Shown here: positions 25,347 through 47,402 of the stretch, piece after piece
Numbering within the stretch: position 1 is the stretch's first letter
How the letters are laid out: every line of letters begins with the position of its first letter
From: a virus
Lineage: Duplodnaviria; Heunggongvirae; Uroviricota; Caudoviricetes
Reading direction: 5' to 3' (one strand)
IMG/VR virus record: IMGVR_UViG_2531839180_000006
Length of the DNA: 47,402 nt
Program-made: the position numbers and the translations under genes
Notes under the pieces: model-generated
Database searches by the model: none
What the model was told of the DNA's origin: nothing
The model's input: only the letters and a program-made list of their open reading frames with translations

Positions 25347-25435
25347 ACTTTTATTCACTTACGTTTCGCCAGTTCGCAGGATTTCATGTTATCCGCCCGC
25401 GTGGCCATGCCTTATTTTTCAGCAAAATATTCTGC

Positions 25436-25969: not shown

Positions 25970-26024
25970 GGATATTTATCAGGATGCTACCAATGAAAGA
26001 TACCGGAAAGCCAACTGCAAAAAG

Positions 26025-26339: not shown

Positions 26340-26343
26340 TGAA

Positions 26344-26559
26344 TTACTCTCCCCGTGCAGCCTTACGACGGTCCTCTCTGATTTTGAAATACAGGTTAGT
26401 CAGATATGTCAGCAGCCCAAACAGCAGACTCCCCAGCACGCCTATTGCCGCCCACTGAGACGGGGAAACCCTGTCCAGCAACTGCAGGAACCAGTAGCCC
26501 GTTCCCACCGCTGACGTGGTGTATGACACACCTGTTGTGATTTTTTCCATCTGGTCCAT
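26344..26559 (-). CDS. Class II holin (S21/pinholin-like, EssQ/EssD family) with dual-start motif MDQMEK
   Basis: '[65 protein letters not shown]' matches lambdoid class II holins; two TMDs; GGAG SD. Confidence 0.9.
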
Positions 26560-26866
26560 ACCCCGTCTCCCGTTATCCGGAAGCTGACAACAATAAAAAA
26601 GCCACCAGTTAACTACTGATGGCTCTGATAACTCATGCAAGCGTCTCAGACGACCCACTGGCACTACCGGTGAGTTTAACGATACCTTCCATTTGACTGA
26701 CTCACTTTTTATGATGATGCCGGTGCATTTATCTCCAGCACCAGACTTTCTGTCTCAACGCCATACGTTGCATTTTTGGTAATATCCGTCAGCGTCAGTG
26801 CATTTAGTCCCACTGCCAGACTGTCTTTTATGGCCTGGAATGCCGGGCCAGTACGATGACGTAGTA

Positions 26867-27055
26867 TCACTCCGGCTCAGTTGCACCGCTGACCACCACA
26901 TCACCTTCTGCTGCAATCGCCTGCATCAGGGTATAAGGGGTTATGGCCACCGGACTACCAAACGGCTGCCAGCCCTCTTTCAGTTTATGTGTCAGCTTTT
27001 CCGCAAGATCTGACGGCGGCGCCGCCCTGACAACATCATAGTGTTTAAATGCCAT
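26867..27055 (-). CDS. Small hypothetical late-region protein (DUF1737-like)
   Basis: 62-aa ORF 'MAFKHYDVVRAAPPSDLAEKL...' upstream of holin; family from memory. Confidence 0.5.
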   Translation of the reverse strand: MAFKHYDVVRAAPPSDLAEKLTHKLKEGWQPFGSPVAITPYTLMQAIAAEGDVVVSGATEPE

Positions 27056-27314
27056 GGTTCTTTCCACCATCTGAAAAATAATTCTTTAAAATACCTGACA
27101 TGTAATACAGAAAAAACACAAAACCATACCTTAAATAAAAACCTGATTATCAAGCAGATATGCATGGATAAACTACAAGACGAGATATAAACCACCCTGC
27201 ATTTAAATAAACAATAAACAACATCAGAAAAATAATTCTGCTCTATGGTTTAATTCAAAAATATCATTTATACTTTTCAGAACATCACCAGCAAGGCATA
27301 AACAAGGAAAGTAA

Positions 27315-27650
27315 ATGAAGTGGATTGTGATTGATACAGTTATCCAGCCATCATGCGGAATATCTTTTTCAGTCATATGGAGTAAAATAAAATTAATAAT
27401 CTGGTATCAATCGGATGCTTTCTTACCTCCTGAAAGTATATTTACACTGACTCACACAGGCATCATGCTCAATAACAAAGTGCTACCTGTAACCATTTAC
27501 AACGTAGTACCATTCAATAAAACATTCTGGAATTTAATCAAAAACAGCCAGGAATGCCCTACAAATACAGATAACGTATTGAATGAATGCTTTAATAACC
27601 GTTGCACTCTGCAAATATGTCCTTATGGACTAAAACAACAAAGTCCATAA
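27315..27650 (+). CDS. Hypothetical AT-rich cargo protein (111 aa, Cys-rich C-terminus), anti-sense to the late operon
   Basis: ORF with SD AAGGAAAG 6 nt before ATG; preceded by ~245-bp very AT-rich region; no recognisable family. Confidence 0.5.
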
Positions 27651-27685
27651 GGAGTTTACTCACATCTGACAAAATCAATATAAAC

Positions 27686-27705
27686 AGCCCCTCCGGAGAG
27701 GGGCT
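27686..27705. terminator. Perfect hairpin AGCCCCTC-CGGA-GAGGGGCT downstream of the 111-aa ORF and of the tRNA cluster; possible bidirectional terminator
   Basis: 8-bp perfect GC-rich stem with tetraloop read directly. Confidence 0.4.
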
Positions 27706-27939
27706 GGAGAGTGGCGCTATGTGCCATTGCATGGTGCCGGGTGCCTCCCGGTGAATTCAGTACCAGCACCTGAATCCGCGATTATCCCATATACCTACTC
27801 GCTGATTGCCCCTCCGCACAGGGGGATTCACCATGCCAGTTTCTTTTAACAAACTCCCCGCAAACCAGACAACAGTCAACCGCCTGAATTGTGAGACATT
27901 TAAAAAAAGCCCGCAAAAGCGAGCCAAGGAAAATAAGTG

Positions 27940-28016
27940 TGGCGCGTTGTACTGGATTCGAACCAGTGACCGATTGCTTAGAAGGCAATTGCTCTGTCCG
28001 GCTGAGCTAACAACGC
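27940..28016 (-). tRNA. argO: tRNA-Arg (anticodon UCU), argO-like
   Basis: Minus strand GCGTTGTTAGCTCAGCCGGACAGAGCAATTGCCTTCTAAGCAATCGGTCACTGGTTCGAATCCAGTACAACGCGCCA folds as a canonical cloverleaf (7-bp acceptor, TTCGAAT T-loop, CCA). Confidence 0.85.
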
Positions 28017-28029
28017 AGGATACAGATAA

Positions 28030-28106
28030 TGGACCGCCTTCGGGGACCCGAACTCCGCGCAACCAGCTTCGAAAGCTGGCGCTCTTTCCTGATGAGCTAA
28101 TGGCGG
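28030..28106 (-). tRNA. argN: tRNA-like, probable tRNA-Arg (anticodon UCG by eye), argN-like; non-canonical pairs, possibly degenerate
   Basis: CCGCCATTAGCTCATCAGGAAAGAGCGCCAGCTTTCGAAGCTGGTTGCGCGGAGTTCGGGTCCCCGAAGGCGGTCCA: cloverleaf possible but A-A mismatch in acceptor stem, A-C mismatch in T-stem, G at position 58. Confidence 0.55.
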
Positions 28107-28113
28107 TATGTGA

Positions 28114-28189
28114 TGGTGGCCCTTGCTGGATTTGAACCAGCGACCTGGCGATTATGAGTCGCTCGCTCTCACCACTGAGCTAAAGGGCC
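28114..28189 (-). tRNA. ileZ: tRNA with anticodon CAU (Ile2/lysidine type, ileZ-like; formally Met/Ile)
   Basis: GGCCCTTTAGCTCAGTGGTGAGAGCGAGCGACTCATAATCGCCAGGTCGCTGGTTCAAATCCAGCAAGGGCCACCA; closely resembles E. coli tRNA-Ile2; perfect acceptor stem, TTCAAAT T-loop. Confidence 0.85.
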
Positions 28190-28238
28190 GGGAGCAGAAT
28201 AATAATGGTGCGTAATTAATTCTGCAATCTCATCCGTT

Positions 28239-29288
28239 TCAAACGATTAAATCCTGAACTTCCCTGACTGTCTGCTCAAAACGTCCGGTCTCCAGCTCAA
28301 CACCAATCGCACGACGCCCCAGTGCCATCGCCGCTTTTACCGTTGAACCCGACCCCATGAAAAAATCCGCAACCAGATCACCAGGACGACTACTTGCGCT
28401 GATTATCTGCTGCAGCATTTCTGCCGGTTTTTCGCACGGATGTTTCCCTGGATAGTGCTGCACCGGTTTATGCGTCCAGACATCGGTGTACGGAACCTGC
28501 GCCGTCACACCGAAATACCGCCGCAAATTTTTATATTCACTCAGCAGTTCCGTATACTGCCGGTTCAGCTCACTGTATGTGCTGACCAGCTGGTGGTGTG
28601 GCTTTTCCAGTTCCCCGCGCTGATGTTTTTCTGCCGCAACACGCGCAAACAACGCCTGCAATTTGTTGTAATCACCCTCGTTCGGTAACTGCCACTGACT
28701 GGTACCAAACCAGTGCGAAGCCATGTTTTTCTTTCCGGTGGCTTCCGCTATCTGTTTTGACGTTATTCCCAGTGATTTACGCGCATCACGAAAGTAAGAA
28801 ATCAGCGGGGCCATGACGTGCTGTTTTAGCTCGCGCCCCTGCTCCACATAGCCATCATCTTTCGGGCGATACGGTCCCTGATAATGTTCTGCAAACAGAA
28901 TGCGCTCTGTTGCCGGAAAATACGCCCGCAGACTTTCCTTATTGCACCCGTTCCAGCGTCCGGACGGCTTCGCCCAGATAATGTGGTTCAGCACATTAAA
29001 GCGCTCACGCATCATGATTTCGGTGTCAGATGCCAGGCGATGACCACAGAACAGGTAAAGACTTCCGGCAGGCTTCAGTACCCGCCAGAACTGCGCCAGA
29101 CACTGGTCCAGCCATTTCAGGTAATCATCGTCGCCCTCCCACTGGTTATCCCAGCTCTCGGGCTTCACTTTAAAGTATGGCGGGTCTGTGACTATCAGAT
29201 CGACAGAATTTTCCGGTAAGGTCTGGATAAATTCCAGGCAATCAGCGTTGATTAACTCACAACTGGATATTTTTACAGTATTGGCCAT
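28239..29288 (-). CDS. Orphan DNA methyltransferase (N6-adenine/N4-cytosine amino-MTase; DPPY motif IV followed by FxGxG motif I)
   Basis: 'LIVTDPPYF' near N-terminus and 'DFFMGSGST' near C-terminus; no adjacent restriction endonuclease candidate. Confidence 0.85.
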   Translation of the reverse strand: MANTVKISSCELINADCLEFIQTLPENSVDLIVTDPPYFKVKPESWDNQWEGDDDYLKWLDQCLAQFWRVLKPAGSLYLFCGHRLASDTEIMMRERFNVLNHIIWAKPSGRWNGCNKESLRAYFPATERILFAEHYQGPYRPKDDGYVEQGRELKQHVMAPLISYFRDARKSLGITSKQIAEATGKKNMASHWFGTSQWQLPNEGDYNKLQALFARVAAEKHQRGELEKPHHQLVSTYSELNRQYTELLSEYKNLRRYFGVTAQVPYTDVWTHKPVQHYPGKHPCEKPAEMLQQIISASSRPGDLVADFFMGSGSTVKAAMALGRRAIGVELETGRFEQTVREVQDLIV

Positions 29289-29438
29289 AGATCAATAAGC
29301 ACTTCTCTGATAGGCTCATACCGCTTTTGCGCAAAGCAGATGGGCCTGAGGTTTGCTTGTGACCCCAACGCATGAGCAGATGGCTGGCAGGTGCCGCTAA
29401 CACCCACCAGCCGCCCATTACCACAAATTAAAAAACCT

Positions 29439-29636
29439 TCACTGAGGAAGGCGTCTGTAACAACCGAACTGATAATCTGCCAGACCCGCCATAACAAGCT
29501 GAGTCAGTATTAACTGGCAGCGTTCGCGTGAAAGGTAAGTATTCTGCGCAATTTCCCCGACGGTCGCCGGTTCGGTGACGCTTAATTCATTAAACACCAC
29601 TCTGGCGGTTTCGGTCATATCCTGCTGTTTTAGCAT
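29439..29636 (-). CDS. Small hypothetical protein, possible winged-helix/HTH regulator (65 aa)
   Basis: ORF with AAGGGA SD; 'VGEIAQNTYLSRERCQLILTQLVMAGL' helix-turn-helix-like segment. Confidence 0.45.
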   Translation of the reverse strand: MLKQQDMTETARVVFNELSVTEPATVGEIAQNTYLSRERCQLILTQLVMAGLADYQFGCYRRLPQ

Positions 29637-29855
29637 GTCTTTTTCCCTTTTCTGGTTAACGTGACATACCAATAACTCTTGTCTAAAAAGCCAGCAAGCT
29701 GAAAGACCGGTATTCGCAACCACCAGCGCGTTTAACGTACTGCATCAATTTTCGAGCATAAAAAGACCGCCTGAGGGCAGCCTTTTTACATTAAAATTAA
29801 GTTTTCTTTAACTATGTTGTATGTGAAATTAGCATTCCCTACTGAGTTTATACAA

Positions 29856-30599
29856 CTAATCTGACGTCACACGCACCATTATACTTACTAAAGAAAAGTC
29901 ATCATCAGGTCCGGCTCTCTCTATACGACGCAAAATGCCATTAGAAAACTTCTGACTATTACTCATCGTATTTGATGTAAATCTGGGGCGTTTTTCCCAA
30001 ACGTTATGAACCCCATCAGACATGATACACAGATGATATACCCCGTTAATACTAGGTAAATCTTTCCATGTGATAAAATCACAGTCGTATTCCATATCAA
30101 CATTTGAGGCTATAGCCGTCGTTAAGATATTTTTGCCCGGTTTATCCTTCAAATCTCTGGGTTTAAAAATATTCTGATCAATTAGCATCTGATGCCTGGT
30201 ATCGTCCTTCGTCAATTGGTATGCTTTCTTCTCTCCAATGCAATACAAACGACAATCACCAATATGACCAATAATAATTCCGCTATCACAAACATAACAA
30301 AACGTAAGTGTAGTAGCAGCTTTATCGAACTCATCATTAACATCAGCTAACGACATAACCTTTCGCTTAACTTCATCAAATACATCCGGAACTGTGTCAA
30401 AAGATAAGCTTGTCAATGCTGAAAGCTCAGCAATTGCCATTGATGAAGCCTGACTGGCACCAGTGTATGAACCTACACCATCAGCTACGGCAAATAAGAT
30501 GCCATCCCCTACAATTTTGGGAGGAAGCAATGAATCTTCGTTGACCCTACCTGGTTCTTTTGGATACGAGAATGATGAAGTCGCTATCAGCTGAATCAT
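29856..30599 (-). CDS. PP2C-family (PPM) Ser/Thr protein phosphatase
   Basis: PPM motifs 'NEDS', 'FAVADGVGS', 'GDCRLY', 'MSDGV', 'DDDFS'; start overlaps kinase stop (ATGA); AT-rich. Confidence 0.8.
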   Translation of the reverse strand: MIQLIATSSFSYPKEPGRVNEDSLLPPKIVGDGILFAVADGVGSYTGASQASSMAIAELSALTSLSFDTVPDVFDEVKRKVMSLADVNDEFDKAATTLTFCYVCDSGIIIGHIGDCRLYCIGEKKAYQLTKDDTRHQMLIDQNIFKPRDLKDKPGKNILTTAIASNVDMEYDCDFITWKDLPSINGVYHLCIMSDGVHNVWEKRPRFTSNTMSNSQKFSNGILRRIERAGPDDDFSLVSIMVRVTSD

Positions 30600-31361
30600 G
30601 ACTCACTCCTTAAAAAAGAATGCACAAAATCAAACGCCACATCATCTATTGTCTGATATCTATCATCTTTATCCATCCTGGTACACTTCGCTATGATAGG
30701 CTTTATTTTTTTATCATCTAAATTTAAGTCCTCAATTAACCGCCCCACCGCATAAACATCAGTCTTAACTGAATACTCGGCATTATATAAAATCTCGGGA
30801 GCCATATATCTTGTACTTCCCATACGGGTACCGATCTCGGTCAATTTAGTGGTATCCCCTTCGGGATTTGTATCTTTTACCAGACCAAAATCAGACACCT
30901 TGTATGTTCCGTCGCTAAATCGCAAGACATTAAATGGTTTTATATCTCTGTGTAAATAGCCTTTCGCATGGATGTGAGCTACACCATCTAATACCATTTT
31001 CACTATTGAAATTTTTTGATCTGTTGTAAGAAGGTTGTTCGTTATTTCGTGCTCAAGATCACATTCTGCTTTATCCATAATGAACCATGGATTCTCGGCA
31101 AACAAATCGCACAAATAAATAGGAACAATATTGCTATGTACGCAATGTGATTGATACACGACCTCCCTTTTAAAACGCCTTCTAAACTGCTCTATTTGCG
31201 CCAAAAGCTCTGGTTTTTCGGGGGCTAAAACCTTTCTAGCATAATCCCCACATTCACCCTTGTTGAGGTTGTAAACCTTAACGTGTTCAACAAAGCCAAA
31301 TGCACCTCTTCCAATCAACTGAATTCGTTTTATAAAGTAATTACCGTGCTGTTCTTCCATT
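30596..31361 (-). CDS. Eukaryotic-like (Hanks-type) Ser/Thr protein kinase
   Basis: Gly-loop 'GRGAFGFV', 'YARKVL' lysine, catalytic loop 'HRDIKPFN', 'DFG', 'MAPE'; AT-rich; start MEEQHG chosen. Confidence 0.85.
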
Positions 31362-31378
31362 AAGCTCACCGACCTAAA

Positions 31379-31403
31379 TTGTAAGAATATCCATATCTTA
31401 CAA
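31379..31403. promoter_or_regulatory. 25-bp palindrome TTGTAAGAATATCCATATCTTACAA immediately upstream of the kinase RBS; operator-like
   Basis: Perfect 8-bp arms TTGTAAGA/TCTTACAA read directly on the plus strand. Confidence 0.4.
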
Positions 31404-31433
31404 CTACAGATAAAAAGGTCCACAGAGTTAAGC

Positions 31434-31458
31434 AAAAAACCCGCATTTAAGCGGGTTT
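31434..31458 (-). terminator. Intrinsic terminator downstream of the Q-like gene (AAACCCGC-TTAAAT-GCGGGTTTTTT on minus strand); candidate tR'
   Basis: GC-rich stem followed by U6 run on minus-strand transcript. Confidence 0.6.
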
Positions 31459-31504
31459 ACACACTATACGGCAAAATATCACATTTACATAAAATGTATG
31501 CGAT

Positions 31505-32194
31505 TTAATTGACTTTTGCAATATCTCGTCGTGAAAAGGTCGCTTTTTGTTGCGATCTCATTTTCACGGTGCAAATCAAGGATTCTGTATCGAGTTTCTT
31601 AAAAATGTCGCACATCTCACGCCAGTAGTTCGCATAATTATGGCTCCAGTTGTCAGGCTTAACTCCACACAGTCTGGCAAGTTCCTGTCGCTGGTAGACG
31701 TCACGCCCAGTAATCCTCCCCCTGACATCCTGCGCCGCCAGCCAGATTAATTTCTTCAGACGCTCAAGCGTTTTCCCTGTAATTTTTCTGGTGCCAAAAT
31801 GCACCTGAAACTTATCCCACGCCCATTTCGCAATGACCACCTGATAATCCCAACTCGGATTTTCACTGTATACCCACAGCACCCACGCCTTCTGATGCTC
31901 TTCAAGAGACAGAACGGCGCGTCGCCATGATGATGTCGAAAACTCAACCGGACTGACCAGGGCAATTGATGAACCTTTCGCCAGCGATTGCTTTCCCGGG
32001 ATTGGTGGATTATCCCGCGTTATCATTTTTCCAGTCACTTCATCGCGGTACCGGATTTTTTTACGCCTGTAACGCCCTGTATCGAACATGGCATTCTCTT
32101 GCCAGGCTTCAAGCTGACCTTTTGTTGCCCCACTCAAATCAGCGGTGGCGATAATGAGCTGCTCACGCACAAACTGTAAATACTGGTTATTCAT
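31505..32194 (-). CDS. Putative late-gene antiterminator Q (QuuQ/YdfT-like family)
   Basis: 229-aa ORF at the Q position (after rusA, before terminator and late genes); start overlaps rusA stop; family from memory, not lambda-Q-like. Confidence 0.55.
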   Translation of the reverse strand: MNNQYLQFVREQLIIATADLSGATKGQLEAWQENAMFDTGRYRRKKIRYRDEVTGKMITRDNPPIPGKQSLAKGSSIALVSPVEFSTSSWRRAVLSLEEHQKAWVLWVYSENPSWDYQVVIAKWAWDKFQVHFGTRKITGKTLERLKKLIWLAAQDVRGRITGRDVYQRQELARLCGVKPDNWSHNYANYWREMCDIFKKLDTESLICTVKMRSQQKATFSRRDIAKVN

Positions 32195-32556
32195 GCGCAC
32201 TCCAGTTCTGTGATTTTTATCCCCAGCCGCCCACCAGGAACGAGATGACCGCGCACAATATTGATTTCATCAAACTGCTCGTCGTCTATAAGTAGTCCGG
32301 CATGCGTCAGCGCATCCAGTGGTGCCTTCAGGATATTGTCCAGGTCGCGGCGGCGCTTATCCGGTGGCTCTGCAATAATCTTTATCGCCAGCCTTCCGGA
32401 CAGGTTTAATTTCAGCCGCTGCTGGCGAACAATTAGCGCCACATCACGGCGATAACGCTTTCCGGCTTCCGAGATGAAATACGTATTGCCATGACGTCGC
32501 CAGTAGGTATTCACCGTCGGCGGGTAAGGCAAAACAAATTCTATGCGTTCAGTCAT
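32191..32556 (-). CDS. rusA: Holliday junction resolvase RusA
   Basis: 121 aa; 'PPDKRRRDLDNILKAPLDALTHAGLLIDDEQ' matches RusA catalytic region. Confidence 0.85.
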   Translation of the reverse strand: MTERIEFVLPYPPTVNTYWRRHGNTYFISEAGKRYRRDVALIVRQQRLKLNLSGRLAIKIIAEPPDKRRRDLDNILKAPLDALTHAGLLIDDEQFDEINIVRGHLVPGGRLGIKITELECA

Positions 32557-33615
32557 TTATGCTTTCCACTTCAGGACACCCGAATTTCTCGCGTGCATTA
32601 AAAAACGAATCAGCAACAACAGCTGGCTGCCGTGTTTTTCTTCAAAATCTTTTACCCCGGCGTGTAGTTCGCTATGGCATATACGGCACAGCGGAATAAC
32701 AAACAAATCATCAGCCTTTGTTCCCATCCCTCCCAGTCCATGACCAATGATGTGATGCGGATCATCTGCCTGATTGCCACACGTCATGCATTTCTGCGTT
32801 TTTACCCAACGCGTGTATACAGGCATATCTTCCCGTTGTGGTTTCTGGCGCTGGAGATACTGAGCCGGTGACTCCGGATCAACGGCAATGCTGACCACCG
32901 TCTTTTCCTGTGGTGGATTCTGTTGCTGGTGGGCGTGAGGCAACGGCGCAATATTTTTTGTGCGCTGCTTCAGTATGCTGATGGCGGTCTGCTCTCCCGG
33001 TACGATGTCGCTCTCGCGGTATACTGAGCGGATTTTTTCACTCGGAAGCTTCAGGATTCGACGCGCCATATTTTCGGTCATGGCATCCACTACATCATTT
33101 ACAGAAGCCCAGCAGCACAATTCAGCCAGCGATAATTCCCGCTCCTGCGTGCCATTCACTGCATGGCGTATGACGTCAATCATCCATGCTGACAGGTTTT
33201 GATGAGCAAGTTGCCCGAGTGATTCGGAGGTCTGGTCACGCAGCTGGTTGTCGCAGTGCCAGCACAACACCATCGCGCCGGTACCGTAACGATGTATGAC
33301 GGTTTCGCTGTGATGGTAGTCACCATGAGGCCACTGGCAGGATTTAACATGGCGTAATAGCCAGTCAGACAGTGCGCCAGCGCCGCCAGCAGCACGAATC
33401 ACCCGCTCATCGCTGAAAAATGGCAGTAGTGATTTATCCTCCGCCAATGGCTGGCGAACGGCAGGAACGACTCCGGACGGCAGACCGCGCATGCTTTTCG
33501 GTTCCGGCTCCACCAGTACACGACCGCTGCGGAATACCTGCATGGATTCACGACCAGGCTTAAGGACCACCAGCCCAAGTTCCGGTACCGGAACAGATCG
33601 AAGTAATACCCGCAC
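32557..33615 (-). CDS. DUF968/YdfU-like protein with C-terminal Cys/His cluster (NinG-like region)
   Basis: 352 aa; C-terminal 'CMTCGNQADDPHHIIGHGLGG...LCRICHSELH'; same position as ydfU in Qin. Confidence 0.6.
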   Translation of the reverse strand: MRVLLRSVPVPELGLVVLKPGRESMQVFRSGRVLVEPEPKSMRGLPSGVVPAVRQPLAEDKSLLPFFSDERVIRAAGGAGALSDWLLRHVKSCQWPHGDYHHSETVIHRYGTGAMVLCWHCDNQLRDQTSESLGQLAHQNLSAWMIDVIRHAVNGTQERELSLAELCCWASVNDVVDAMTENMARRILKLPSEKIRSVYRESDIVPGEQTAISILKQRTKNIAPLPHAHQQQNPPQEKTVVSIAVDPESPAQYLQRQKPQREDMPVYTRWVKTQKCMTCGNQADDPHHIIGHGLGGMGTKADDLFVIPLCRICHSELHAGVKDFEEKHGSQLLLLIRFLMHARNSGVLKWKA

Positions 33616-33616
33616 G

Positions 33617-33895
33617 TTACCTCCAGATCCGTTGCTGGAATGTGCGGGACGGACGCGGTGGGCGTTCGGAATAAGGGAGTCTGACGGAAATTATCCAGTG
33701 TCGGAAGTCAGAACTGAGGTCTTTCTGAAACTCGTAACCACGTCTGCGGTAGTTCTGAATCAGCCACTCGGCCTGTTCTTCGGTGCAGGGGTCGTGCTGA
33801 TACCAGTCAGATTTGAATGTGTGAGGATACCGCTCGTGCGTACAGGCAAGAACGGTCGAATTATTATGATTGTAATATTTTGCGTTGCGTGCCAT
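33617..33895 (-). CDS. Hypothetical nin-region protein (92 aa)
   Basis: ORF with GGAGAAAA SD; stop adjacent to start of downstream gene. Confidence 0.5.
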   Translation of the reverse strand: MARNAKYYNHNNSTVLACTHERYPHTFKSDWYQHDPCTEEQAEWLIQNYRRRGYEFQKDLSSDFRHWIISVRLPYSERPPRPSRTFQQRIWR

Positions 33896-33961
33896 CGGTT
33901 TTCTCCGGTGGCACGGTGTTACTCAGCGGGAGTTCAGCCCCGCGCAAGATTGTAGATGAGT

Positions 33962-34225
33962 TTATTCTTCTGAAAAAGCAGAAAAGCCAGCTTTTATTCC
34001 GATCTCTTTCAATGCCTGTAATGAAGTGGCAAACTCATCGTCGCGCAAGATAAATCCGTCCGTCACCCGAGCATCCACAAAATTAATTAATGCAACCCCA
34101 CTCTTTCTTTGCTTCTTTCGCAAACACAGAACGCGGCAATGACTAACAATATTTCCATTTTCAACGCACACAGCATAGAGGCCATCTTCACAAAAAATTT
34201 TACGCAGTTCTTCGATGTTCATCAT
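33962..34225 (-). CDS. Hypothetical nin-region protein (87 aa)
   Basis: ORF with strong SD GGAAGGA 5 nt before ATG. Confidence 0.5.
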   Translation of the reverse strand: MMNIEELRKIFCEDGLYAVCVENGNIVSHCRVLCLRKKQRKSGVALINFVDARVTDGFILRDDEFATSLQALKEIGIKAGFSAFSEE

Positions 34226-34443
34226 CAGAATCCTTCCGGATAATTAGCTCTCCCCTTCAGGGGGCCATCCCTCTTATCCCTGCGCGCTACTTAAGTGTTT
34301 TGGATTCTATATCCGGTGTCTTAAAAAAAGTTAAAACGCATTGAAAATAAAACAAAAAACCGTCGAAGCGGGTTAAGCGCGGGTGCGTTGAGGATGCCGA
34401 CACATCAGAGGTGGCGGGAGATTACTCTCCCGCCAGGTCACTC

Positions 34444-34599
34444 TTACTCTCTAGATTCGTAGTCTACGAAAACAGCAACCTCCGTCTGGCCGGTTCGGAT
34501 TCGTACCTCGCAGAGGTCTTTCCTCGTTACCAGTGCCGTCACTATGACGGTTAAACAGATGACGATAAGGGCGATTAACATCGCCTTTTGCTGCTTCAT
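34444..34599 (-). CDS. hok: Hok-family type I toxin (HokD/RelF-like membrane peptide)
   Basis: 'MKQQKAMLIALIVICLTVIVTALVTRKDLCEVRIRTGQTEVAVF' matches Hok/Gef family; AAGGAG SD; in-frame upstream extension (to 34656) may be mok-like. Confidence 0.85.
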   Translation of the reverse strand: MKQQKAMLIALIVICLTVIVTALVTRKDLCEVRIRTGQTEVAVFVDYESRE

Positions 34600-35025
34600 A
34601 GCCTGCTTCTCCTTGCCTTTCGGCACGTAAGAGGCTAACCTACATTTGTGAGACATAGATTGGGCCTCAGATTAATGTTAAGCGTCTTGCAGGACGCGTA
34701 ATGTTAACTGGGGCTTTTCTCTATCTGCCTTTTGGTGTTCATGCCTGAGACAGATAGCCTCAAGCACCCGCAGCAATTCTACTTAACTCTCCTTTTCCCG
34801 CAAACCGTTTTTATCCTCAACGTAAATTTTACCAATATTGCCTAACACATCTCCCTTGCCCTGACGATGCTTACCTCTTTACACAGACCCAAATTTATGT
34901 ATTATCTTTTACAAACAAGCAGTTAAGAGCTATCGGTGGGTGAGTTCGCCCTGCGGTAGCTTTTCCTTTATGCATTGCATCTATTTATGTTCTAGTATAT
35001 TCCTATATGTTCAAAAGGACTTTTC

Positions 35026-35958
35026 ATGCACAGCGTTAATTTCTATTCATTCCGCGTATTGACCCATAAAGGCAGTCGAGCCAGCAAAAAACTTAATGAA
35101 TTGGGTTTAAGTAATAAAAAAACGGCATATGAACTTTTTGTTGATTATTTTACTCTATATAAAAACACCCCCATCGAGTTTGGCGTATCCAAAACTAAAA
35201 TATCTCTGGAACAACACGCTAAACTTCACTTTGATAACTCAAAGAAAATTATATATGGTTATATAAAAGTTGGGAAATATGGAGAAAGCAGTGAAATAAA
35301 AGATGTAAAACTCAAAAAAATCCACTACAGGACAACTGCTTATGATGTAACACTCAAAGAACGTTATATTTTAATATACCTACCAGACGCCCTTGAAGAA
35401 GGAATTATTGCATTCCACTCTTGCGATAATATTTCTGCCCGAGGTGTCCTTTCTGATTCTATCACTGAATATCTAAAAAACAAATTTCAACTCGAAGCAA
35501 GAATCAATCCATTACATCATAAGAAAATCCCTCAATATATTCTCAATTCCGAATTAAAACAAATTAAGGCTCAAGGATATAAAGCACCAAAAGACATTGC
35601 TGATTCCTTTGGTCAAAACAAAACAAACATCAAGACAGACTTAATAATAAAAGCAAACGATGGCATGTTCGGAAGTTTCAGGGATTTAAGAAACAAGAAT
35701 ATAGGAAACATCATTGAGATTATTGAAGATAAATGTGATGCAATAAAAGTAAGCTTACAACTCGGCAGTCGGACTGTCGTTTTCAATTATGAGACCATAC
35801 TAAAAAAAGGAATTTCTGCAGAGTTAGATGATAATGATTTAAAAATCGACCCATTAACAGGCATACCTGATCTAACAGCACTTCATGACACGATAAAAAA
35901 CCTTTCTAATGATATATTGTTAGAACTGCATAGCGGAAACAAAGGGGTGATTATATGA
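35026..35958 (+). CDS. Hypothetical soluble protein (310 aa), first gene of an AT-rich two-gene cassette; candidate sensor component
   Basis: Long ORF with SD AAAAGGA; very low GC compared with flanking phage genes; no recognisable catalytic motif by eye. Confidence 0.6.
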   Translation: MHSVNFYSFRVLTHKGSRASKKLNELGLSNKKTAYELFVDYFTLYKNTPIEFGVSKTKISLEQHAKLHFDNSKKIIYGYIKVGKYGESSEIKDVKLKKIHYRTTAYDVTLKERYILIYLPDALEEGIIAFHSCDNISARGVLSDSITEYLKNKFQLEARINPLHHKKIPQYILNSELKQIKAQGYKAPKDIADSFGQNKTNIKTDLIIKANDGMFGSFRDLRNKNIGNIIEIIEDKCDAIKVSLQLGSRTVVFNYETILKKGISAELDDNDLKIDPLTGIPDLTALHDTIKNLSNDILLELHSGNKGVII

Positions 35959-36509
35959 ATAAAATAAATGTGCTGGGTGTAATAATAAAACACTACAAAA
36001 CAATGTCAGATCAGCGTGGAACAATGTTGATGAGCGACATTATCGTACATTTTATTGTTCCGTTATCTCTTTCTTTCGTTCTGTGCCGGACATACGGAAT
36101 AATGAAACCGGCAATTGCTTCCGTCTTCGTTAACTTCGGGGCTATTACAACAGCACTATTAATGAGTGCAGTAATAATGATTTATGAACAAAAACAAAAA
36201 ACCATCACTAAGATATCAGACATAATTGAAGGAAACAAATCCCGAGACAAATTGATATCATTAAACACTAACAAAACCATATATGAGCAGTTATGCCACA
36301 ACGTCGCTTATGCAATATTAACTTCAATAGTATTGGTTATATTTTCAGTGATAATATATTTCCTGCCTGACAATGCAGTGGATTTAATGAAATGGTATTT
36401 TCGCGCACCTGCATATATTGTTAGCTTTTTAGCCTATACATCCTTTTTTATCACTGTTATAACGTTCTTAATGGTAATAAAAAGATTTAGCACAATTTTA
36501 GATAATTGA
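35955..36509 (+). CDS. Hypothetical integral membrane protein (184 aa, ~4 predicted TM helices), second gene of the cassette; candidate membrane effector
   Basis: Four hydrophobic ~20-aa segments; start overlaps upstream stop (ATGA); SD AAAGGGGTGA. Confidence 0.6.
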   Translation: MNKINVLGVIIKHYKTMSDQRGTMLMSDIIVHFIVPLSLSFVLCRTYGIMKPAIASVFVNFGAITTALLMSAVIMIYEQKQKTITKISDIIEGNKSRDKLISLNTNKTIYEQLCHNVAYAILTSIVLVIFSVIIYFLPDNAVDLMKWYFRAPAYIVSFLAYTSFFITVITFLMVIKRFSTILDN

Positions 36510-36520
36510 ACAGCGGAACA

Positions 36521-36538
36521 GCCGCCCTTTCGGGCGGC
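36521..36538. terminator. GC-rich hairpin GCCGCCC-TTTC-GGGCGGC between convergent genes; bidirectional terminator-like
   Basis: Perfect 7-bp stem read directly, between stop codons at 36509 and 36548. Confidence 0.45.
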
Positions 36539-36547
36539 CTCCTGACA

Positions 36548-36760
36548 TTAATCGTTGTGGTAACTCATGGCTTCATTTGCAGCATCAACTGGATCAACAT
36601 CCCACCAGCAATAATTTGGGTTGGCTCCTTCAGGTGTCCATGATTCTAATTCACTTTTTGCCGCATTCTCGTCGCCAGTAATTTTAAAAATCTGCTCAGA
36701 AAATTTTTTCACCCACTCGTTATATTTTTCCGCGTTAATGTTTTTTTGTGTATTTAACAT
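36548..36760 (-). CDS. Small acidic hypothetical protein (70 aa)
   Basis: ORF with strong SD GGAGGA; AT-rich; convergent with the two-gene cassette. Confidence 0.5.
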   Translation of the reverse strand: MLNTQKNINAEKYNEWVKKFSEQIFKITGDENAAKSELESWTPEGANPNYCWWDVDPVDAANEAMSYHND

Positions 36761-40917: not shown

Positions 40918-40918
40918 T

Positions 40919-43204: not shown

Positions 43205-43426
43205 ATGATTGCTCATCACTTCGGAACTGATGATATTCCTCGTCAGTGCGTGACTCCCGGTGATTATGTTATTCATAAAGGAAGAACATATATTGCTTCG
43301 GTAAACAATATAAAAAAACACCGGCTCTATATTCGTGATTTTTCCACACAACACTGTATTAATGAAACCATGATTAAAGTCTTCCTTGATCGTGATGGTT
43401 TACCTGTAAAGGCGGAGTCGTGGTGA
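43205..43426 (+). CDS. Hypothetical small protein (73 aa)
   Basis: ORF with strong SD AAGGAG. Confidence 0.5.
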
Positions 43427-43543: not shown

Positions 43544-45982
43544 TTGATGAGCACGAATAAAGAAGTGTTTGCGCTATATTGCGAAGCTAAAAATGACAAG
43601 GTCAGAAAGCGTCTCGGTATTAAAGGTGGCTTTTTCTGGATCGAAGCCAAAAAACTTTCCGTTGCAGTTTCCCGCTGTATTGCCGCTATGGACGATGCTG
43701 GCTACGACGAAGATGATTTCAAAAAAACAGTTCGCATCCATTTGCCTGTTGTAAATGACCTGCCACCTGAAGGCGTATTTGATACTGATTTCTGTAACCG
43801 TTACGAAAAAGGTGGAGAAGATGGCATCACAATGATGCCGGTACCGTCCAGCAACAGCGATGAAAACAGTAACGCCGCTAATACTAACGTCAACGGCGAA
43901 GACATGATTGAGATTGAGGAGAATATTCTTCTGCCGGTTTCAGGTCAGCTTCTGCCTGTTAGATGGCTGGCACAGCACGGCAGCGAAAAACCTGTCACGC
44001 ATGTTTCACGGGATGAACTGCGGGCATTACATAACGCACAGGAAGAAAAACTTCCCGCCGTTACCGCTCTGGCCATCTCAAATAAAGCAGTGCAACTCGA
44101 ACCGCTGGAGATTCGGGATTTGTACAAACTGGTGCGGGACACTGACAAAGTTTTTCCCGCCCCCGTAAATTCAGACCTGGGACTGATGACTTCCTTCATC
44201 GAAGCATACCTGGACGCTGACTACACCAATCGCGGTCTGCTTACAAAAGAGTGGATGAAAGGAAATCATGTTTCGCGAATCAGCCGCACACCATCCGGCG
44301 CTAACGCTGGCGGCGGTATTCTTACCGATCGCGGCGAAGGTTTTGTACACGATGATGCATCACTGGCGCGCGACGTAGCCACTGGCGTGCTGGCCCGTTC
44401 AATGGACGTGGACATTTATAACCTTCATCCGGCACACGCTAAACGCGTCGAGGAAATTATCGCTGAAAATAAACCGCCCTTTTCTGTTTTCTTCAGCAAA
44501 TTCATCACCATGCCGGGCCACAAGGATTTCTCCCGTGCCATCGTGGTTGCCTCCGTGAAAGAAGCACCAGTTGGTATAGAGGCTATGCCCCACCGTGTCA
44601 CCGAATACCTGAATAAAGTGCTGACTGAAACCGATCATGCCAACCCTGATCCGGAAATCGTGGATATTGCCTGCGGTCGCTCCTCTGCCCCGATGCCGCA
44701 GCGTGTAACTGAAAAAGAAAAACATGATGAAGAAAAACCGCAACCATCTGGCGCAATGGCAGATGAACAGGCAACGGCTGAAACAGTGGAACCGGATGCA
44801 ACTGAACATCATCCGGACACGCAGCCGGTGGATGCTCAGCCACAGGTGAATTCTGTTGATGCGAAATATCAGAAACTGCGGGCAGAACTCCATGAAGCCA
44901 GGAAAAACATTTCGCCTAAAAATCCTGTCGACGCAAACAAATTACTGGCAGCCTCTCGCGGAGAATTTGTTGAAGGGATTAGTGACCCGAATGATCCGAA
45001 ATGGGTTAAGGGGCTCCAGACTCGCGAGTCTTCGAACCAGAATCAACCAGAAGTGGAACAAACCAAGCCAGAATCGGGACAAAATAGCCAGGATGCACAC
45101 CAAAATGAACCAAAAACGATACATCCGGAGCCAGCAGCGCAACATGCACAGAAAAATCCCTGTAATGTTTGTGGGGAAACTGGCGGGGGCACATGCCCTG
45201 ACTGTGCCTCAGTAATGGGTGACGCAACTTACCATGAGACATTCTGCGAGGAAGATTCAGATGAATCTCAGGAAAAAGCTCCGGAGGAGATGGAAAACCC
45301 TGAACATCCGCATCCGGAAAATACTGACAGCAATCAGCATAACAATAGCGGTGATAAAACTGACAGGACGACAAATTCCTTAATTAATATGCACGGTCAT
45401 CAGAAAAGAACATCCACCAGCAGAATGTGTCACCATCTGATGATCGACCTTGAAACAATGGGAAAAAATCCTGATTCCCCGATTATCTCAATAGGTGCAA
45501 TATTTTTCGATCCGCAAACCGGAGAGATGGGACCAGAATTTAATAAAACCATCGATCTGGAAACTGCTGGCGGAGTCATTGATCGGGACGCGATCAAGTG
45601 GTGGCTGAAGCAATCACGCGAAGCGCAATCTGCCATTCTGACCGATGAAATCCCGTTAGATGATGCACTGCTGCAATTGCGGGAATTTATCGCCGAAAAC
45701 TCCGGTGAATTGTTTGTTCAGGTCTGGGGAAATGGAGCCAACTTCGACAACGTGATTTTGCGCCGTTCATATGAACGGCAGGGTATCCCCTGCCCGTGGC
45801 GCTACTACAACGATCGCGATGTACGCACAATCATTGAACTGGGAAAATCCATAGACTTCGATGCCAGGACGCCTATTCAATTCGAAGACATACGCCACAA
45901 TGCGCTGGATGATGCCCGTCACCAGGCGAAATACGTTTCAGCAATCTGGCAAAAACTGATCCCGAATCAGTCTGATTTTTAA
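43544..45982 (+). CDS. RecE-like exonuclease VIII family protein with Zn-ribbon and C-terminal DEDDh (DnaQ-like) 3'-5' exonuclease domain
   Basis: N-terminal ~570 aa resembles E. coli RecE N-terminal region; '[15 protein letters not shown]'; C-terminal Exo I-III motifs 'MIDLETMG', 'VWGNGANFD', 'HNALDDARH'. Confidence 0.75.
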
Positions 45983-46045
45983 TGTTCAACCCCGGTCGTC
46001 GCCCCCAGCTATAGTGGCGGCGACCATGATTAGCGAACGATACTC

Positions 46046-46294
46046 ATGGCAAGACTTATTCTGCTCACTGAGTGGGCAAAAGAGGAATTCAGCGATCCGG
46101 TCCCTACTCCGGGCACGTTAAGTAAATACGCTAAAGCCGGAATGATATTTCCTCTCCCCAAAAAAGTTGGAAGACACTGGCGAGTGGATCCGCGAGCTCG
46201 CTTTGTCGGAATGGTAAACAAGCCGGAGGTGATCGCCACAGATCACCCTGCTTTAAAGAGGATACTGGAAGATGGCACGCCCGCGAAAATATAA
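46046..46294 (+). CDS. xis: Excisionase (Xis-like DNA-binding protein)
   Basis: 82-aa ORF immediately upstream of and overlapping int; wing-helix-like 'LSKYAKAGMIFPLPKKVGRHWRV'. Confidence 0.7.
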   Translation: MARLILLTEWAKEEFSDPVPTPGTLSKYAKAGMIFPLPKKVGRHWRVDPRARFVGMVNKPEVIATDHPALKRILEDGTPAKI

Positions 46295-47402
46295 AACCGC
46301 TGTTCCGGGATTATCTCCGTATTTTGACAAAAGAAATAACAAAGTTTACTGGCGTTACAGGCATCCCATCACAGGTAAAAATCATGGACTCGGCAGTATT
46401 GACCAGAAACTGGCGGAAACCATTGCAGCAGAAGCGAACAGCCGTCTTGCCAGACAACAAATGGAGCAAATGCTCAGTCTGCAGGAGAAAATTATTAATG
46501 ATACCGGCGGTTCATCAACCGTTTCCATTTTTCTGAATAATTACAGAAAAATTCAACAGGAAAGATATGAAAACGGAGAAATCAAACTCAACACGCTGAA
46601 ACAGAAAGCGGCCCCTCTCAGGGTTTTTGATGAACGTTTTGGCACCAGACCGTTAGATGCCATAACCGTAAAGGATGTGGTATCGGTGCTGGAAGAGTAC
46701 AAGTCCAGAGGACATAACAGAATGGGACAAATTTTCAGGAAGGTACTGATCGATGTTTTCCGGGAGGCTCAGCAAACGGGCGATGTCCCGCCAGGCTTTA
46801 ACCCTGCAGAATCGGCAAAAAAACCACAGGTGCGGATATCAAGACAGCGACTGACTTTTGATGAGTGGACGATGATTTATAACGCAGCGGAAAAGGATGG
46901 TTACTTTTTACAGCGCGGTATGCTGCTGGCACTGATGACAGGCCAGCGCCTTTCAGATATTTGCAAAATGCAATTTTCGGATATCCGGGATGGTTATCTT
47001 CATGTCGAACAGCAAAAAACAGGAACCCGGATTGCCATCCCTCTGGCTCTGCGTTGCGATAAATTAAATCTCACCCTGGATGATGTGGTGTCATCCTGTC
47101 GCGATTGCGTTCTTAGTCCGTGGCTATTGCACCATCATCACGCGAAAGGGACAGCTAAGCGCGGCGGGATGGTTAAGCCAGCAACGTTAACCGTTGCATT
47201 TAAAAAAGCGCGGGATTCTGTGGATTACAACTGGCGTGCTAATGGCACCCCACCCTCTTTCCATGAGCAGAGATCTTTATCAGAGCGATTGTTCAGAGAG
47301 CAGGGAATTGATACCCAAATTTTGCTGGGTCATTCGAATCAAAAAATGACCGATATTTACAACGATGCACGCGGCAAGGAGTGGAAAAAACTGGTCATTT
47401 GA
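46272..47402 (+). CDS. int: Tyrosine integrase (lambda Int family)
   Basis: 376 aa; N-terminal arm-binding region, C-terminal catalytic 'HEQRSLSERLF...LLGHSNQKMTDIY'; stop TGA is the last codon of the window. Confidence 0.9.
   Translation: MARPRKYKTAVPGLSPYFDKRNNKVYWRYRHPITGKNHGLGSIDQKLAETIAAEANSRLARQQMEQMLSLQEKIINDTGGSSTVSIFLNNYRKIQQERYENGEIKLNTLKQKAAPLRVFDERFGTRPLDAITVKDVVSVLEEYKSRGHNRMGQIFRKVLIDVFREAQQTGDVPPGFNPAESAKKPQVRISRQRLTFDEWTMIYNAAEKDGYFLQRGMLLALMTGQRLSDICKMQFSDIRDGYLHVEQQKTGTRIAIPLALRCDKLNLTLDDVVSSCRDCVLSPWLLHHHHAKGTAKRGGMVKPATLTVAFKKARDSVDYNWRANGTPPSFHEQRSLSERLFREQGIDTQILLGHSNQKMTDIYNDARGKEWKKLVI

What the first reader, a model, noticed from the sequence alone, without database searches (positions are those of the whole stretch)
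43544..45982. RecE-like protein carrying a DnaQ-type exonuclease domain; no RecT/Bet-like annealase gene seen
The 812-aa early-left-operon protein has a RecE-like N-terminal region, a Cys4 Zn-ribbon and a C-terminal DEDDh 3'-5' exonuclease domain rather than a lambda-Exo/RecE-type nuclease. It is followed directly by xis and int; I found no single-strand annealing protein ORF nearby. This is a non-canonical recombination module.
Basis: partly seen in the sequence, partly recalled or inferred. Interest (0 to 1): 0.4.

Follow-up and report, generated by a model that had tools for sequence, protein, structure and literature searches.

The report
Prophage RecE-head, DexA-like exonuclease fusion
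The last early gene of this lambda-like prophage joins the front part of the RecE recombination nuclease to a 3'-5' exonuclease related to phage T4 DexA, with no strand-annealing partner; the gene type is common and already annotated in enteric prophages, and the phages that carry it appear to leave recombination to the host RecBCD enzyme.

Summary
CDS 43547-45982 (811 aa from the ATG) is 70% identical to Rac RecE over RecE residues 50-591. Homology stops 14 residues before the solved RecE nuclease domain. A complete DEDDh domain follows (Pfam Rv2179c-like, 1.7e-65) with all five catalytic residues, and T4 DexA is the closest solved relative. No RecT, Bet, Erf, Exo or Gam is found in the window, and xis and int follow directly.

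The interpretation as a recombination module is only partly supported. The architecture is ordinary: 613 of 5,426 complete E. coli genomes carry it, it recurs in about ten other enterobacterial genera, and two 2025 papers touch on it. In 20 of 21 related loci the gene sits just before xis or int, and none has an annealase nearby.

These prophages are rich in Chi sites: 10 in the window against 1.8 expected, and 89 versus 23 by orientation across 22 relatives. [quoted passage not shown]

I read the gene as an early-lytic DNA 3'-end exonuclease. The swap itself is shown; the biological role is inferred. A DexA-type anti-phage role (HREX) is the main rival. New member of a known kind, modest interest.

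The parts
43547..45982 (+). CDS of the fusion exonuclease (811 aa from the ATG; the mechanical ORF starts at TTG 43544)
43547..44698 (+). Folded N-terminal RecE-type region (aa 1-384). The Pfam Exonuc_VIII match covers nt 43709-44107. No informative fold relative was found in PDB or BFVD.
   Evidence: dN/dS 0.22
44699..45430 (+). Long acidic, Pro/Gln-rich region predicted to be disordered (aa 385-628). It evolves fast (dN/dS 0.3-1.7) except for the two elements listed next.
44954..45013 (+). Conserved linear motif [20 protein letters not shown] (aa 470-489). It is shared with Rac RecE, with the Tritos-type exonuclease and with distant fusions. dN/dS is 0.04-0.08.
45161..45205 (+). Cys4 motif [15 protein letters not shown] (aa 539-553), shared with RecE. 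Zinc binding is not shown.
45383..45385 (+). Last codon with homology to Rac recE (aa 613 = RecE 591). This is the swap point, 14 residues before the solved RecE nuclease domain.
45414..45421 (-). Chi octamer (GCTGGTGG on the - strand) between the swap point and the DEDDh domain. It is conserved in all 10 Escherichia-type loci examined.
45431..45949 (+). DEDDh 3'-5' exonuclease domain (Pfam Rv2179c-like; DexA-like fold). Catalytic residues are D634, E636, D734, H784 and D789.
45994..46025 (+). G+C-rich hairpin (10-bp stem, 12-nt loop) between the exonuclease stop codon and xis, with no T run after it
   Evidence: read from the sequence
43205..43426 (+). KilR/Kil-like gene immediately upstream, in the same operon
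46046..46294 (+). Excisionase gene
46272..47402 (+). Integrase gene. In the closest relative the prophage sits next to ompW.
25095..36609 (-). Seven of the window's eight - strand Chi sites, lying 1.5-13 kb from the cos/lysis (right) end of the vegetative map

Best explanation
The gene encodes a mosaic early-lytic DNA exonuclease. The first ~613 residues are the RecE N-terminal module: a folded region of unknown function, a disordered acidic linker, the conserved SRGEF...KWVKG motif and a Cys4 motif. At the point where RecE's 5'-3' PD-(D/E)XK nuclease would begin, a DexA-type DEDDh 3'-5' exonuclease domain takes its place. Compared with the Rac order, the segment holding the recE nuclease part, recT, ralR and rcbA is missing, so xis and int follow directly.

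The protein is transcribed as the last gene of the leftward early operon before xis and int, so it would be made after induction or infection rather than in the lysogen. It most likely removes nucleotides from DNA 3' ends by two-metal catalysis, probably as a dimer like DexA, RNase T and Orn. The RecE-type head and the linker motif would supply targeting or partner binding.

It is not a self-contained recombination system. The phage has no annealase and no RecBCD inhibitor, and it carries many correctly oriented Chi sites. Homologous recombination is therefore delegated to host RecBCD and RecA, and the exonuclease is at most an accessory that processes 3' ends during lytic DNA metabolism.

Shown: the domain composition, the swap point, the intact active site, the absence of annealase genes, the Chi enrichment, and the conservation of the architecture and its position. 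Inferred: DNA as substrate, polarity, time of expression, and the biological role.
For: Domain swap.

Active site and fold. A family profile matches T4 DexA, a DNA 3'-5' exonuclease, at E 1.3e-20 over its full length.

Purifying selection acts on both folded parts (dN/dS about 0.22) and on the linker motif (0.04-0.08), while the linkers drift.

The fusion is old. Clusters only 55-72% identical in the DEDDh domain still carry Exonuc_VIII at the N-terminus. Full-length relatives occur in Enterobacter, Klebsiella, Citrobacter, Kluyvera, Kosakonia, Pluralibacter, Buttiauxella and others.

Position and partners: 20 of 21 full-length loci have xis or int within about 1 kb downstream. None has RecT, Bet, Erf, Exo, the RecE nuclease, Gam or Abc2 within 10 kb. 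PHROGs scans of two distant loci found only a repressor and small ORFs upstream. The context is the same in E. coli and in phages Tritos and PPompW.

[quoted passage not shown] In the 10-kb upstream flanks of 22 related loci the count is 89 against 23 (binomial p 2e-10). The active-strand density is 0.43 per kb, against 0.22 per kb for both strands together in the host flanks. Rac, lambda, P22 and HK620 segments have none. This matches the 'no Rec module, high Chi' class of PMC12315714.

Link of the domain to recombination genes: stand-alone members sit directly beside Erf or Abc2 in six loci, as that paper reports for epsilon34-type Rec modules.
Against: No experiment addresses this protein. 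Pfam names the domain an exoribonuclease, so RNA is not excluded as substrate.

According to PMC12315714, 3'-5' exonucleases usually inhibit rather than promote homologous recombination. No specific step in RecBCD-Chi recombination is known to need one.

Mutual exclusion with annealases could simply reflect that both gene sets occupy the same genomic slot.

About 38% of the closest protein clusters (46 of 120), including the most abundant E. coli allele, have Lys in place of the catalytic Glu. Catalysis is therefore dispensable, or already lost, in many copies.

The Chi orientation bias is partly confounded with the coding strand.

My annealase panel for the related loci lacked Sak4 and Rad52-type queries, apart from the two loci scanned with PHROGs.
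Confidence: 0.5

Rival explanations
1. An inter-phage weapon of the HREX type. The DexA-like domain selectively degrades hydroxymethylcytosine-modified or otherwise modified DNA of competing T-even-like phages, as reported for the E. coli DexA homologue EcD, and so protects the lysogen or the induced cell.
For: DexA is the closest solved relative. Kang et al. 2025 (PMC12153337) showed that EcD degrades T4 DNA and protects against T4. Their census of DexA homologues is dominated by Escherichia, Citrobacter and Klebsiella. It includes URC08875.1, an 813-aa fusion protein in the same DicB-YdfD-exonuclease-xis-int context. Prophages commonly carry defence genes, and this one also carries a PD-T4-6/Stk2-like kinase.
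Against: The gene lies at the end of the repressed early-left operon, not in a moron position with its own promoter. The tested EcD is a short protein starting MIDTET, and its sequence could not be recovered for comparison. The signature proposed for EcD is not met: DexA W152 aligns with Tyr754, and the tetramer residue D90 aligns with a retained Asp706; the alignment is loose in that stretch. PADLOC gives only a generic Cas-associated DEDDh match at 7.7e-5. This role would not explain the strict linkage to the RecE-type head or to prophages that lack an annealase and are rich in Chi.
Confidence: 0.2
2. Host-DNA scavenging or a host-takeover nuclease. Like T4 DexA in its other role, it would degrade nicked or broken host DNA, or host defence nucleic acids such as retron or reverse-transcriptase ssDNA products, from 3' ends during lytic growth.
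For: DexA's annotated role in the T4 record is host DNA degradation and replication (PMC12153337). Expression would be early and lytic, next to the host-killing gene kilR.
Against: Temperate lambdoid phages are not known to degrade the host chromosome. There is no accompanying endonuclease. This role would not explain the conserved RecE-type head.
Confidence: 0.1
3. An exoribonuclease, as the Pfam family name suggests, that trims or degrades RNA 3' ends. Possible targets are phage or host small RNAs of the same operon, or signalling oligonucleotides.
For: The Pfam family is named after the Mycobacterium tuberculosis exoribonuclease Rv2179c. Structural neighbours include RNase T, Orn and REXO2. 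Relatives carry DicF, and this window carries isrK and C4 RNAs in the same operon.
Against: A family profile finds DexA, a DNase, at 1.3e-20. Oligoribonucleases reach only about 1e-3, and Rv2179c itself is not found. The fusion partner is the head of a DNA exonuclease.
Confidence: 0.1
4. A decaying remnant. An illegitimate or Chi-stimulated recombination event replaced the working part of recE and recT, and the product persists in largely defective prophages without a function of its own.
For: The terminase large subunit of this prophage is split by a frameshift. Catalytic E636K and D734N alleles are common. YdfE of Qin (from my own knowledge) and several database entries are truncated or frameshifted copies. 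A Chi site sits at the junction.
Against: The ORF is intact with dN/dS about 0.22 in both folded parts. The architecture is kept across clusters down to 55% identity and across about ten genera. It is present in phage genome records (Tritos, vB_Eco series).
Confidence: 0.1

Closest known systems
RecE (exodeoxyribonuclease VIII) of the Rac prophage, with RecT
   Same: 70% identity over RecE residues 50-591, including the SRGEF motif and the Cys4 motif. The operon neighbourhood is the same: kilR upstream, xis and int downstream.
   Different: It lacks the C-terminal PD-(D/E)XK 5'-3' nuclease domain (RecE 605-866, PDB 3H4R) and the adjacent recT, ralR and rcbA genes. It carries a nuclease of the opposite expected polarity.
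Phage T4 DexA (exonuclease A; PDB 8KEL/8KEN)
   Same: The DEDDh fold and all catalytic residues. It is the best sequence and structure match among solved proteins.
   Different: Identity is only about 29%. DexA is a stand-alone 227-aa protein of a virulent phage with modified DNA. W152 is Tyr here, and several DexA loops are absent.
EcD / HREX, the E. coli DexA homologue reported to degrade 5hmC DNA (Kang et al. 2025, PMC12153337)
   Same: The same domain family and host range. A fusion protein of the window's type is in that paper's homologue list.
   Different: EcD is a short stand-alone protein starting MIDTET. The window protein does not show the proposed EcD signature, and it sits in a repressed lytic operon.
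DnaQ-type nuclease genes of lambdoid phages (Zheng, Casjens, Davidson, Amundsen, Smith 2025, PMC12315714)
   Same: [quoted passage not shown] The second description fits this gene.
   Different: The passages I read do not describe the fusion to the RecE N-terminal region, nor its consistent pairing with genomes that lack an annealase and are rich in Chi. It sets these genes aside as not belonging to the Rec module.
Tritos/PPompW-type prophage exonuclease (823 aa) and YdfE of Qin
   Same: The C-terminal ~350 residues (motif, Cys4, DEDDh) are about 84-89% identical, and the gene has the same position before xis and int.
   Different: The Tritos type has an unrelated N-terminal ~460 residues with no Pfam match. 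That YdfE is an IS-truncated N-terminal fragment comes from my own knowledge and was not tested here.

Membership tests
RecE / exodeoxyribonuclease VIII | N-terminal Exonuc_VIII region (PF06630) | tested here: met
   Pfam 5.7e-28; 70% identity to RecE 50-591
RecE / exodeoxyribonuclease VIII | C-terminal PD-(D/E)XK 5'-3' exonuclease domain (RecE 605-866) | tested here: not met
   There is no similarity after RecE 591. tblastn with the RecE nuclease domain gives E > 1. The NCBIfam equivalog matches positions 1-602 of 877 only and scores 972, below the 1269 cut-off. The fold search gives only DEDDh hits.
RecE / exodeoxyribonuclease VIII | Adjacent recT (annealase partner) | tested here: not met
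DEDDh (DnaQ-like) exonucleases, Pfam Rv2179c-like PF16473 | Profile match above the curated cut-off over the whole domain | tested here: met
   220.5 bits against a cut-off of 27, model positions 1-177 of 177
DEDDh (DnaQ-like) exonucleases, Pfam Rv2179c-like PF16473 | Exo I D-x-E, Exo II D and Exo III H-x4-D residues | tested here: met
   D634, E636, D734, H784 and D789
DEDDh (DnaQ-like) exonucleases, Pfam Rv2179c-like PF16473 | DnaQ-like fold | tested here: met
   The AlphaFold2 domain has pLDDT about 70-87. Foldseek puts DexA, RNase T and Orn at probability 1.0 with target TM-scores of 0.6-0.7.
DEDDh (DnaQ-like) exonucleases, Pfam Rv2179c-like PF16473 | 3'-5' exonuclease activity, and whether the substrate is DNA or RNA | not testable with these tools
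   Needs enzyme assays
HREX / EcD-type anti-phage DexA homologues | Homology to DexA with an intact active site | tested here: met
HREX / EcD-type anti-phage DexA homologues | Conserved Trp (DexA W152) and acidic residue (D169) proposed for 5hmC recognition | tested here: inconclusive
   W152 aligns with Tyr754. D169 aligns with Asp770, but in a poorly aligned stretch.
HREX / EcD-type anti-phage DexA homologues | Loss of the tetramer-forming Asp (DexA D90, Ala in EcD) | tested here: not met
   D90 aligns with a retained Asp706, and S87 aligns with Pro703
HREX / EcD-type anti-phage DexA homologues | Protection against T4 and selective cleavage of 5hmC DNA | not testable with these tools
   Needs plaque assays and nuclease assays
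Phage Rec module as described by Zheng et al. 2025 (annealase with or without nuclease, SSB and RecBCD inhibitor) | A strand-annealing protein gene | tested here: not met
Phage Rec module as described by Zheng et al. 2025 (annealase with or without nuclease, SSB and RecBCD inhibitor) | An anti-RecBCD gene (Gam, Abc2) | tested here: not met
   Gam by tblastn; no PHROGs match
[quoted passage not shown] | No recognisable Rec module genes | tested here: met
[quoted passage not shown] | Many Chi sites, mostly in the active orientation and towards the right end | tested here: met
   10 sites against 1.8 expected. Eight are on the strand of the late genes, and seven of those lie within 13 kb of the cos/lysis end.
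[quoted passage not shown] | Growth enhanced by RecBCD | not testable with these tools
   Needs plating on recBCD mutant hosts

The most novel reading that the evidence does not exclude
The RecE-type head plus the DexA-type 3'-5' exonuclease would be a dedicated accessory factor of lambdoid phages that rely on host RecBCD-Chi recombination instead of their own annealase system. It might trim 3' tails so that RecBCD can load on phage DNA ends, or process RecBCD products. The conserved linker motif would dock it to a host recombination or replication protein. That would make it a defined, widespread third kind of phage recombination gene set, alongside Red/RecET-type and Erf-type modules.
Probability: 0.15. 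Interest if true: 0.6.

Novelty: new member of a known kind. Interest (0 to 1): 0.3.

Why it matters
The RecE N-terminal ~600 residues are needed for efficient recombination between two linear DNAs, but their function is still described as unclear (PMC11610958). Here the same head, linker motif and Cys4 motif are kept under purifying selection while attached to a nuclease of opposite expected polarity, in phages that have no RecT. This shows that the head is an independent module whose partner is not RecT. It offers a natural comparison for working out what the head does.

The consistent pairing of this gene with lambdoid prophages that lack an annealase and are rich in Chi also gives the RecBCD-dependent phage class a candidate accessory gene that can be tested genetically.

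The gene type itself is very common and already annotated, so this is a refinement rather than a discovery.

Tried and rejected
- **EcD sequence.** I tried to recover the sequence of EcD (HAK9828821.1) for direct comparison. The paper's primers give only the start MIDTET. No protein among the 150 cluster representatives or the fetched loci fits. A scan of viral contigs with the reverse primer gave one chance hit with no exonuclease gene.
- **PADLOC.** It gave only a generic Cas-associated DEDDh match.
- **Rfam.** It found no DicF in the window, although relatives carry it.
- **Promoter and terminator scan.** The number of sites did not exceed the shuffled expectation, so it says nothing about expression.
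- **PD-(D/E)XK reading of the C-terminus.** Considered and rejected.
- **Recent accidental fusion.** Considered and rejected, because the architecture persists in diverged clusters and many genera.
- **Literature.** Searches for Rv2179c, PF16473 and ydfE found no study of this fusion protein.
Full report
**Setting.** The window is a complete lambda-like prophage.
- Tail, head and packaging genes are on the - strand from about 1 to 23.3 kb. These include the portal, a large terminase subunit split into two ORFs, and the small terminase subunit.
- Lysis genes lie at 24.7-26 kb, a Q-like antiterminator at 31.5-32.2 kb and RusA at 32.2-32.6 kb.
- O- and P-like replication genes lie at 37.9-39.4 kb, followed by cII-like and cro-like genes and a cI-like repressor at 40114-40572.
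- The leftward early operon runs on the + strand from 40.6 kb to the integrase gene, which ends at the last base of the window.
- In the closest relative the element is integrated next to ompW.

**The observation.**
- The ORF exists and is intact. Its likely start is the ATG at 43547, which has a GAGG 8 nt upstream and gives the 811 aa found in database homologues.
- Pfam finds Exonuc_VIII at the N-terminus and a complete Rv2179c-like DEDDh domain at the C-terminus (1.7e-65).
- The NCBIfam exodeoxyribonuclease VIII model matches only its first 602 of 877 positions and stays below the family cut-off.
- BLASTP against Rac RecE gives 70% identity from RecE 50 to 591 and nothing afterwards. The DNA alignment shows the same break.
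- The only solved part of RecE, its nuclease domain, spans 605-866. The swap therefore lies just in front of the catalytic domain.
- The Cys4 motif is real and shared with RecE. It is missing from more distant fusions and AlphaFold2 does not fold it, so 'zinc ribbon' remains a guess.
- All five DEDDh residues are present and almost invariant in a 72-sequence family alignment.
- T4 DexA is the only PDB sequence hit for the protein. It is the top hit of a family profile (1.3e-20) and the top structural match, followed by RNase T, Orn and REXO2.

**No annealase.**
- tblastn with RecT, Bet, Exo, Gam, RalR and RcbA against the whole window gives only chance-level hits.
- PHROGs scans of all six frames of 40573-46050 find small early genes, a Rha/Ash-type regulator, a Kil/KilR-like protein and the exonuclease, but no annealase, SSB or RecBCD inhibitor.
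- The large non-structural ORFs elsewhere are a methyltransferase, a kinase, Q, an HNH protein, replication proteins, Ren, RusA and proteins of unknown function.

**How common it is.**
- 613 of 5,426 complete E. coli genomes hold a near full-length copy, annotated 'exonuclease' or '3'-5' exonuclease'. 4,717 genomes hold at least a partial match.
- The protein database returned 8,000 hits, which is the cap. All of the best 120 have the same precomputed two-domain architecture, and one cluster was seen on at least 1,000 contigs.
- The DEDDh domain alone finds 11,849 clusters at 50% identity. Most are stand-alone proteins of about 180-200 aa.
- Long representatives only 55-72% identical to the window in the DEDDh domain still carry Exonuc_VIII at the N-terminus.
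- Full-length relatives occur in Enterobacter, Dryocola, Buttiauxella, Pluralibacter, Kluyvera, Klebsiella, Atlantibacter, Citrobacter, Phytobacter and Kosakonia.
- One representative, P0123, has the exact Rac RecE N-terminus joined to the DEDDh domain.
- A second type, found in phages Tritos and PPompW, has an unrelated N-terminal ~460 residues on the same C-terminal ~350 residues.

The fusion is old, modular and maintained.

**Selection.** I computed pairwise Nei-Gojobori estimates against an E. coli homologue.

| Region | dN/dS |
|---|---|
| RecE-type core | 0.22 |
| DEDDh domain | 0.22 |
| [20 protein letters not shown] motif | 0.08 |
| Flanking linkers | 0.3-0.7 |

Comparisons with Rac RecE and with Tritos give the same picture, with linker values reaching 1.0-1.7. 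AlphaFold2 agrees with this layout. Residues 1-384 are folded, 385-625 are disordered and 630-806 are folded. The N-terminal model has no informative match in PDB or in viral predicted structures.

**Context in relatives.**
- Of 21 loci from other species that carry the full-length architecture, 20 have xis or int within about 1 kb downstream. The remaining one is cut by its contig end.
- None has RecT, Bet, Erf, lambda Exo, the RecE nuclease domain, Gam or Abc2 within 10 kb.
- In a Klebsiella locus and an Enterobacter locus, PHROGs found only a repressor and small ORFs between the immunity region and the gene.
- E. coli strains and phages Tritos, PPompW and vB_EcoS-689R5 show the order cI, small ORFs, (DicF), dicB, ydfD, exonuclease, xis, int.
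- By contrast, six stand-alone members of the same domain family lie directly beside Erf or Abc2. This is the arrangement that Zheng et al. describe as a DnaQ-type nuclease inside a Rec module.

**Chi.** Zheng, Casjens, Davidson, Amundsen and Smith (2025, PMC12315714) showed that lambdoid phages without a Rec module mostly carry many Chi sites. The sites are oriented for RecBCD entering from the right end, and one such phage grows better with RecBCD.
- The window has 10 Chi sites against 1.8 expected, and none of 100 shuffles reached more than 5.
- Eight are on the strand of the late genes. Seven of those lie 1.5-13 kb from the cos/lysis end.
- In the 10-kb flanks on the immunity and replication side of 22 related loci, Chi occurs 89 times in that orientation and 23 times in the other (binomial p 2e-10). 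The active-strand density is 0.43 per kb, against 0.22 per kb for both strands together in the adjacent host DNA.
- The corresponding segments of Rac, lambda, P22 and HK620 have none.
- Part of the orientation bias may follow the coding strand.

The prophage thus belongs to the published class that delegates recombination to RecBCD and RecA. The fusion gene appears to be a regular companion of that class, at least in this lineage.

**What it does.** Established knowledge of DEDDh enzymes predicts two-metal hydrolysis from free 3' ends. The nearest characterised relative is a DNase. The partner module comes from a DNA-end exonuclease. The position as last gene before xis and int predicts expression after induction. 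I therefore read it as an early-lytic DNA 3'-end exonuclease whose RecE-type head and linker motif provide targeting.

Its biological role is not settled.
- **Accessory role in host-driven recombination.** This fits the genomic associations. However, 3'-5' exonucleases are generally anti-recombinogenic.
- **Defence role.** Kang et al. (2025, PMC12153337) showed that the short E. coli DexA homologue EcD degrades 5hmC DNA and protects against T4. Their homologue list includes a fusion protein of this type. The window protein does not show the proposed EcD signature, sits in a repressed operon, and has no specific PADLOC match.
- **Loss of activity in many copies.** 46 of the 120 closest clusters, including the most abundant allele, have Lys in place of the catalytic Glu, and two have Asn in place of the Exo II Asp. 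The window copy is intact.

**Verdict.** The label 'recombination module' is not earned. The gene is a well-populated, already annotated architecture that two recent papers touch on. The useful additions from this work are:
- the exact swap point;
- the age and modularity of the fusion;
- the conserved linker motif;
- the consistent pairing with prophages that lack an annealase and are rich in Chi;
- a conserved Chi site at the domain junction.

Noticed in passing
window 45414-45421 (- strand): A Chi octamer lies about 20 nt upstream of the DEDDh domain, just after RecE homology ends. It is conserved in all 10 Escherichia-type loci examined, although the surrounding linker evolves almost neutrally (peptide TSTSR). 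It could mark the recombination point of the domain swap, or it could simply be one of the phage's selected Chi sites.
   Followed up: partly
proteins P0007, P0031 and others; L001 9866: 46 of the 120 closest protein clusters have Lys in place of the catalytic Glu of the D-x-E motif (MIDLKT). These include the most abundant E. coli allele, seen on at least 1,000 contigs. P0001 and P0097 have Asn in place of the Exo II Asp. Many full-length copies are therefore probably catalytically dead.
   Followed up: partly
window 44954-45013: The motif [20 protein letters not shown] is the most conserved stretch of the protein (dN/dS 0.04-0.08), inside a region predicted to be disordered. It is shared by RecE, the Tritos-type exonuclease and distant fusions. 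It looks like a short partner-binding motif, and the partner cannot be RecT.
   Followed up: partly
window 20829-22815 (- strand): The large terminase subunit is split into two overlapping ORFs (profile positions 324-583 and 582-982). This suggests a frameshift, so the prophage may be unable to package DNA; a sequencing error is also possible.
   Followed up: partly
window 42358-42546 (+ strand): Rfam finds isrK (62 bits) and a C4 antisense RNA (80 bits) directly upstream of the Rha/Ash-type regulator. The mechanical 283-aa ORF 42307-43158 runs over both RNAs, so the real CDS probably starts later. This resembles the P1/P7 c4-ant and Gifsy isrK-antirepressor arrangement (that resemblance is from my own knowledge).
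   Followed up: no
window 29856-31435 (- strand): A Ser/Thr kinase matches the PADLOC PD-T4-6, Stk2 and mad6 models (down to 3e-40). A 247-aa protein of unknown function lies beside it. This is a likely prophage-borne defence gene pair downstream of Q.
   Followed up: no
window 34594-36509: A sok antitoxin RNA (120 bits) lies next to a low-G+C island (33-37% G+C) with two + strand ORFs of 310 and 184 aa. They match only PHROGs of unknown function and no PADLOC model. This is a possible moron or unrecognised defence pair.
   Followed up: no
window 27676-29288 (- strand): Three tRNA genes, the sRNA STnc100 and a type II-like DNA methyltransferase are clustered between the lysis genes and the kinase.
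   Followed up: no
window 41407-41586 (+ strand): PHROG 8854 (59 aa, unknown function) matches at 4e-30 across in-frame stop codons. This is either a pseudogene or conserved non-coding DNA once called as a gene. Relatives carry DicF in this part of the operon, but Rfam finds no DicF here.
   Followed up: no
window 45994-46025: A G+C-rich hairpin with a 10-bp stem lies between the exonuclease stop codon and xis, without a T run. It could be a processing or attenuation signal governing xis and int expression.
   Followed up: no
L036, L038, L045, L058, L065, L067: Stand-alone DEDDh genes of the same family (about 54-57% identical) lie directly next to Erf or Abc2 homologues. The same nuclease domain is therefore also used inside canonical Erf-type recombination modules.
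   Followed up: partly
protein P0123 (805 aa): This cluster representative has the exact Rac RecE N-terminus (MSTKPLFLLRKAKK...) joined to the DEDDh C-terminus. The nuclease domain has therefore been exchanged on more than one RecE-type head.
   Followed up: no
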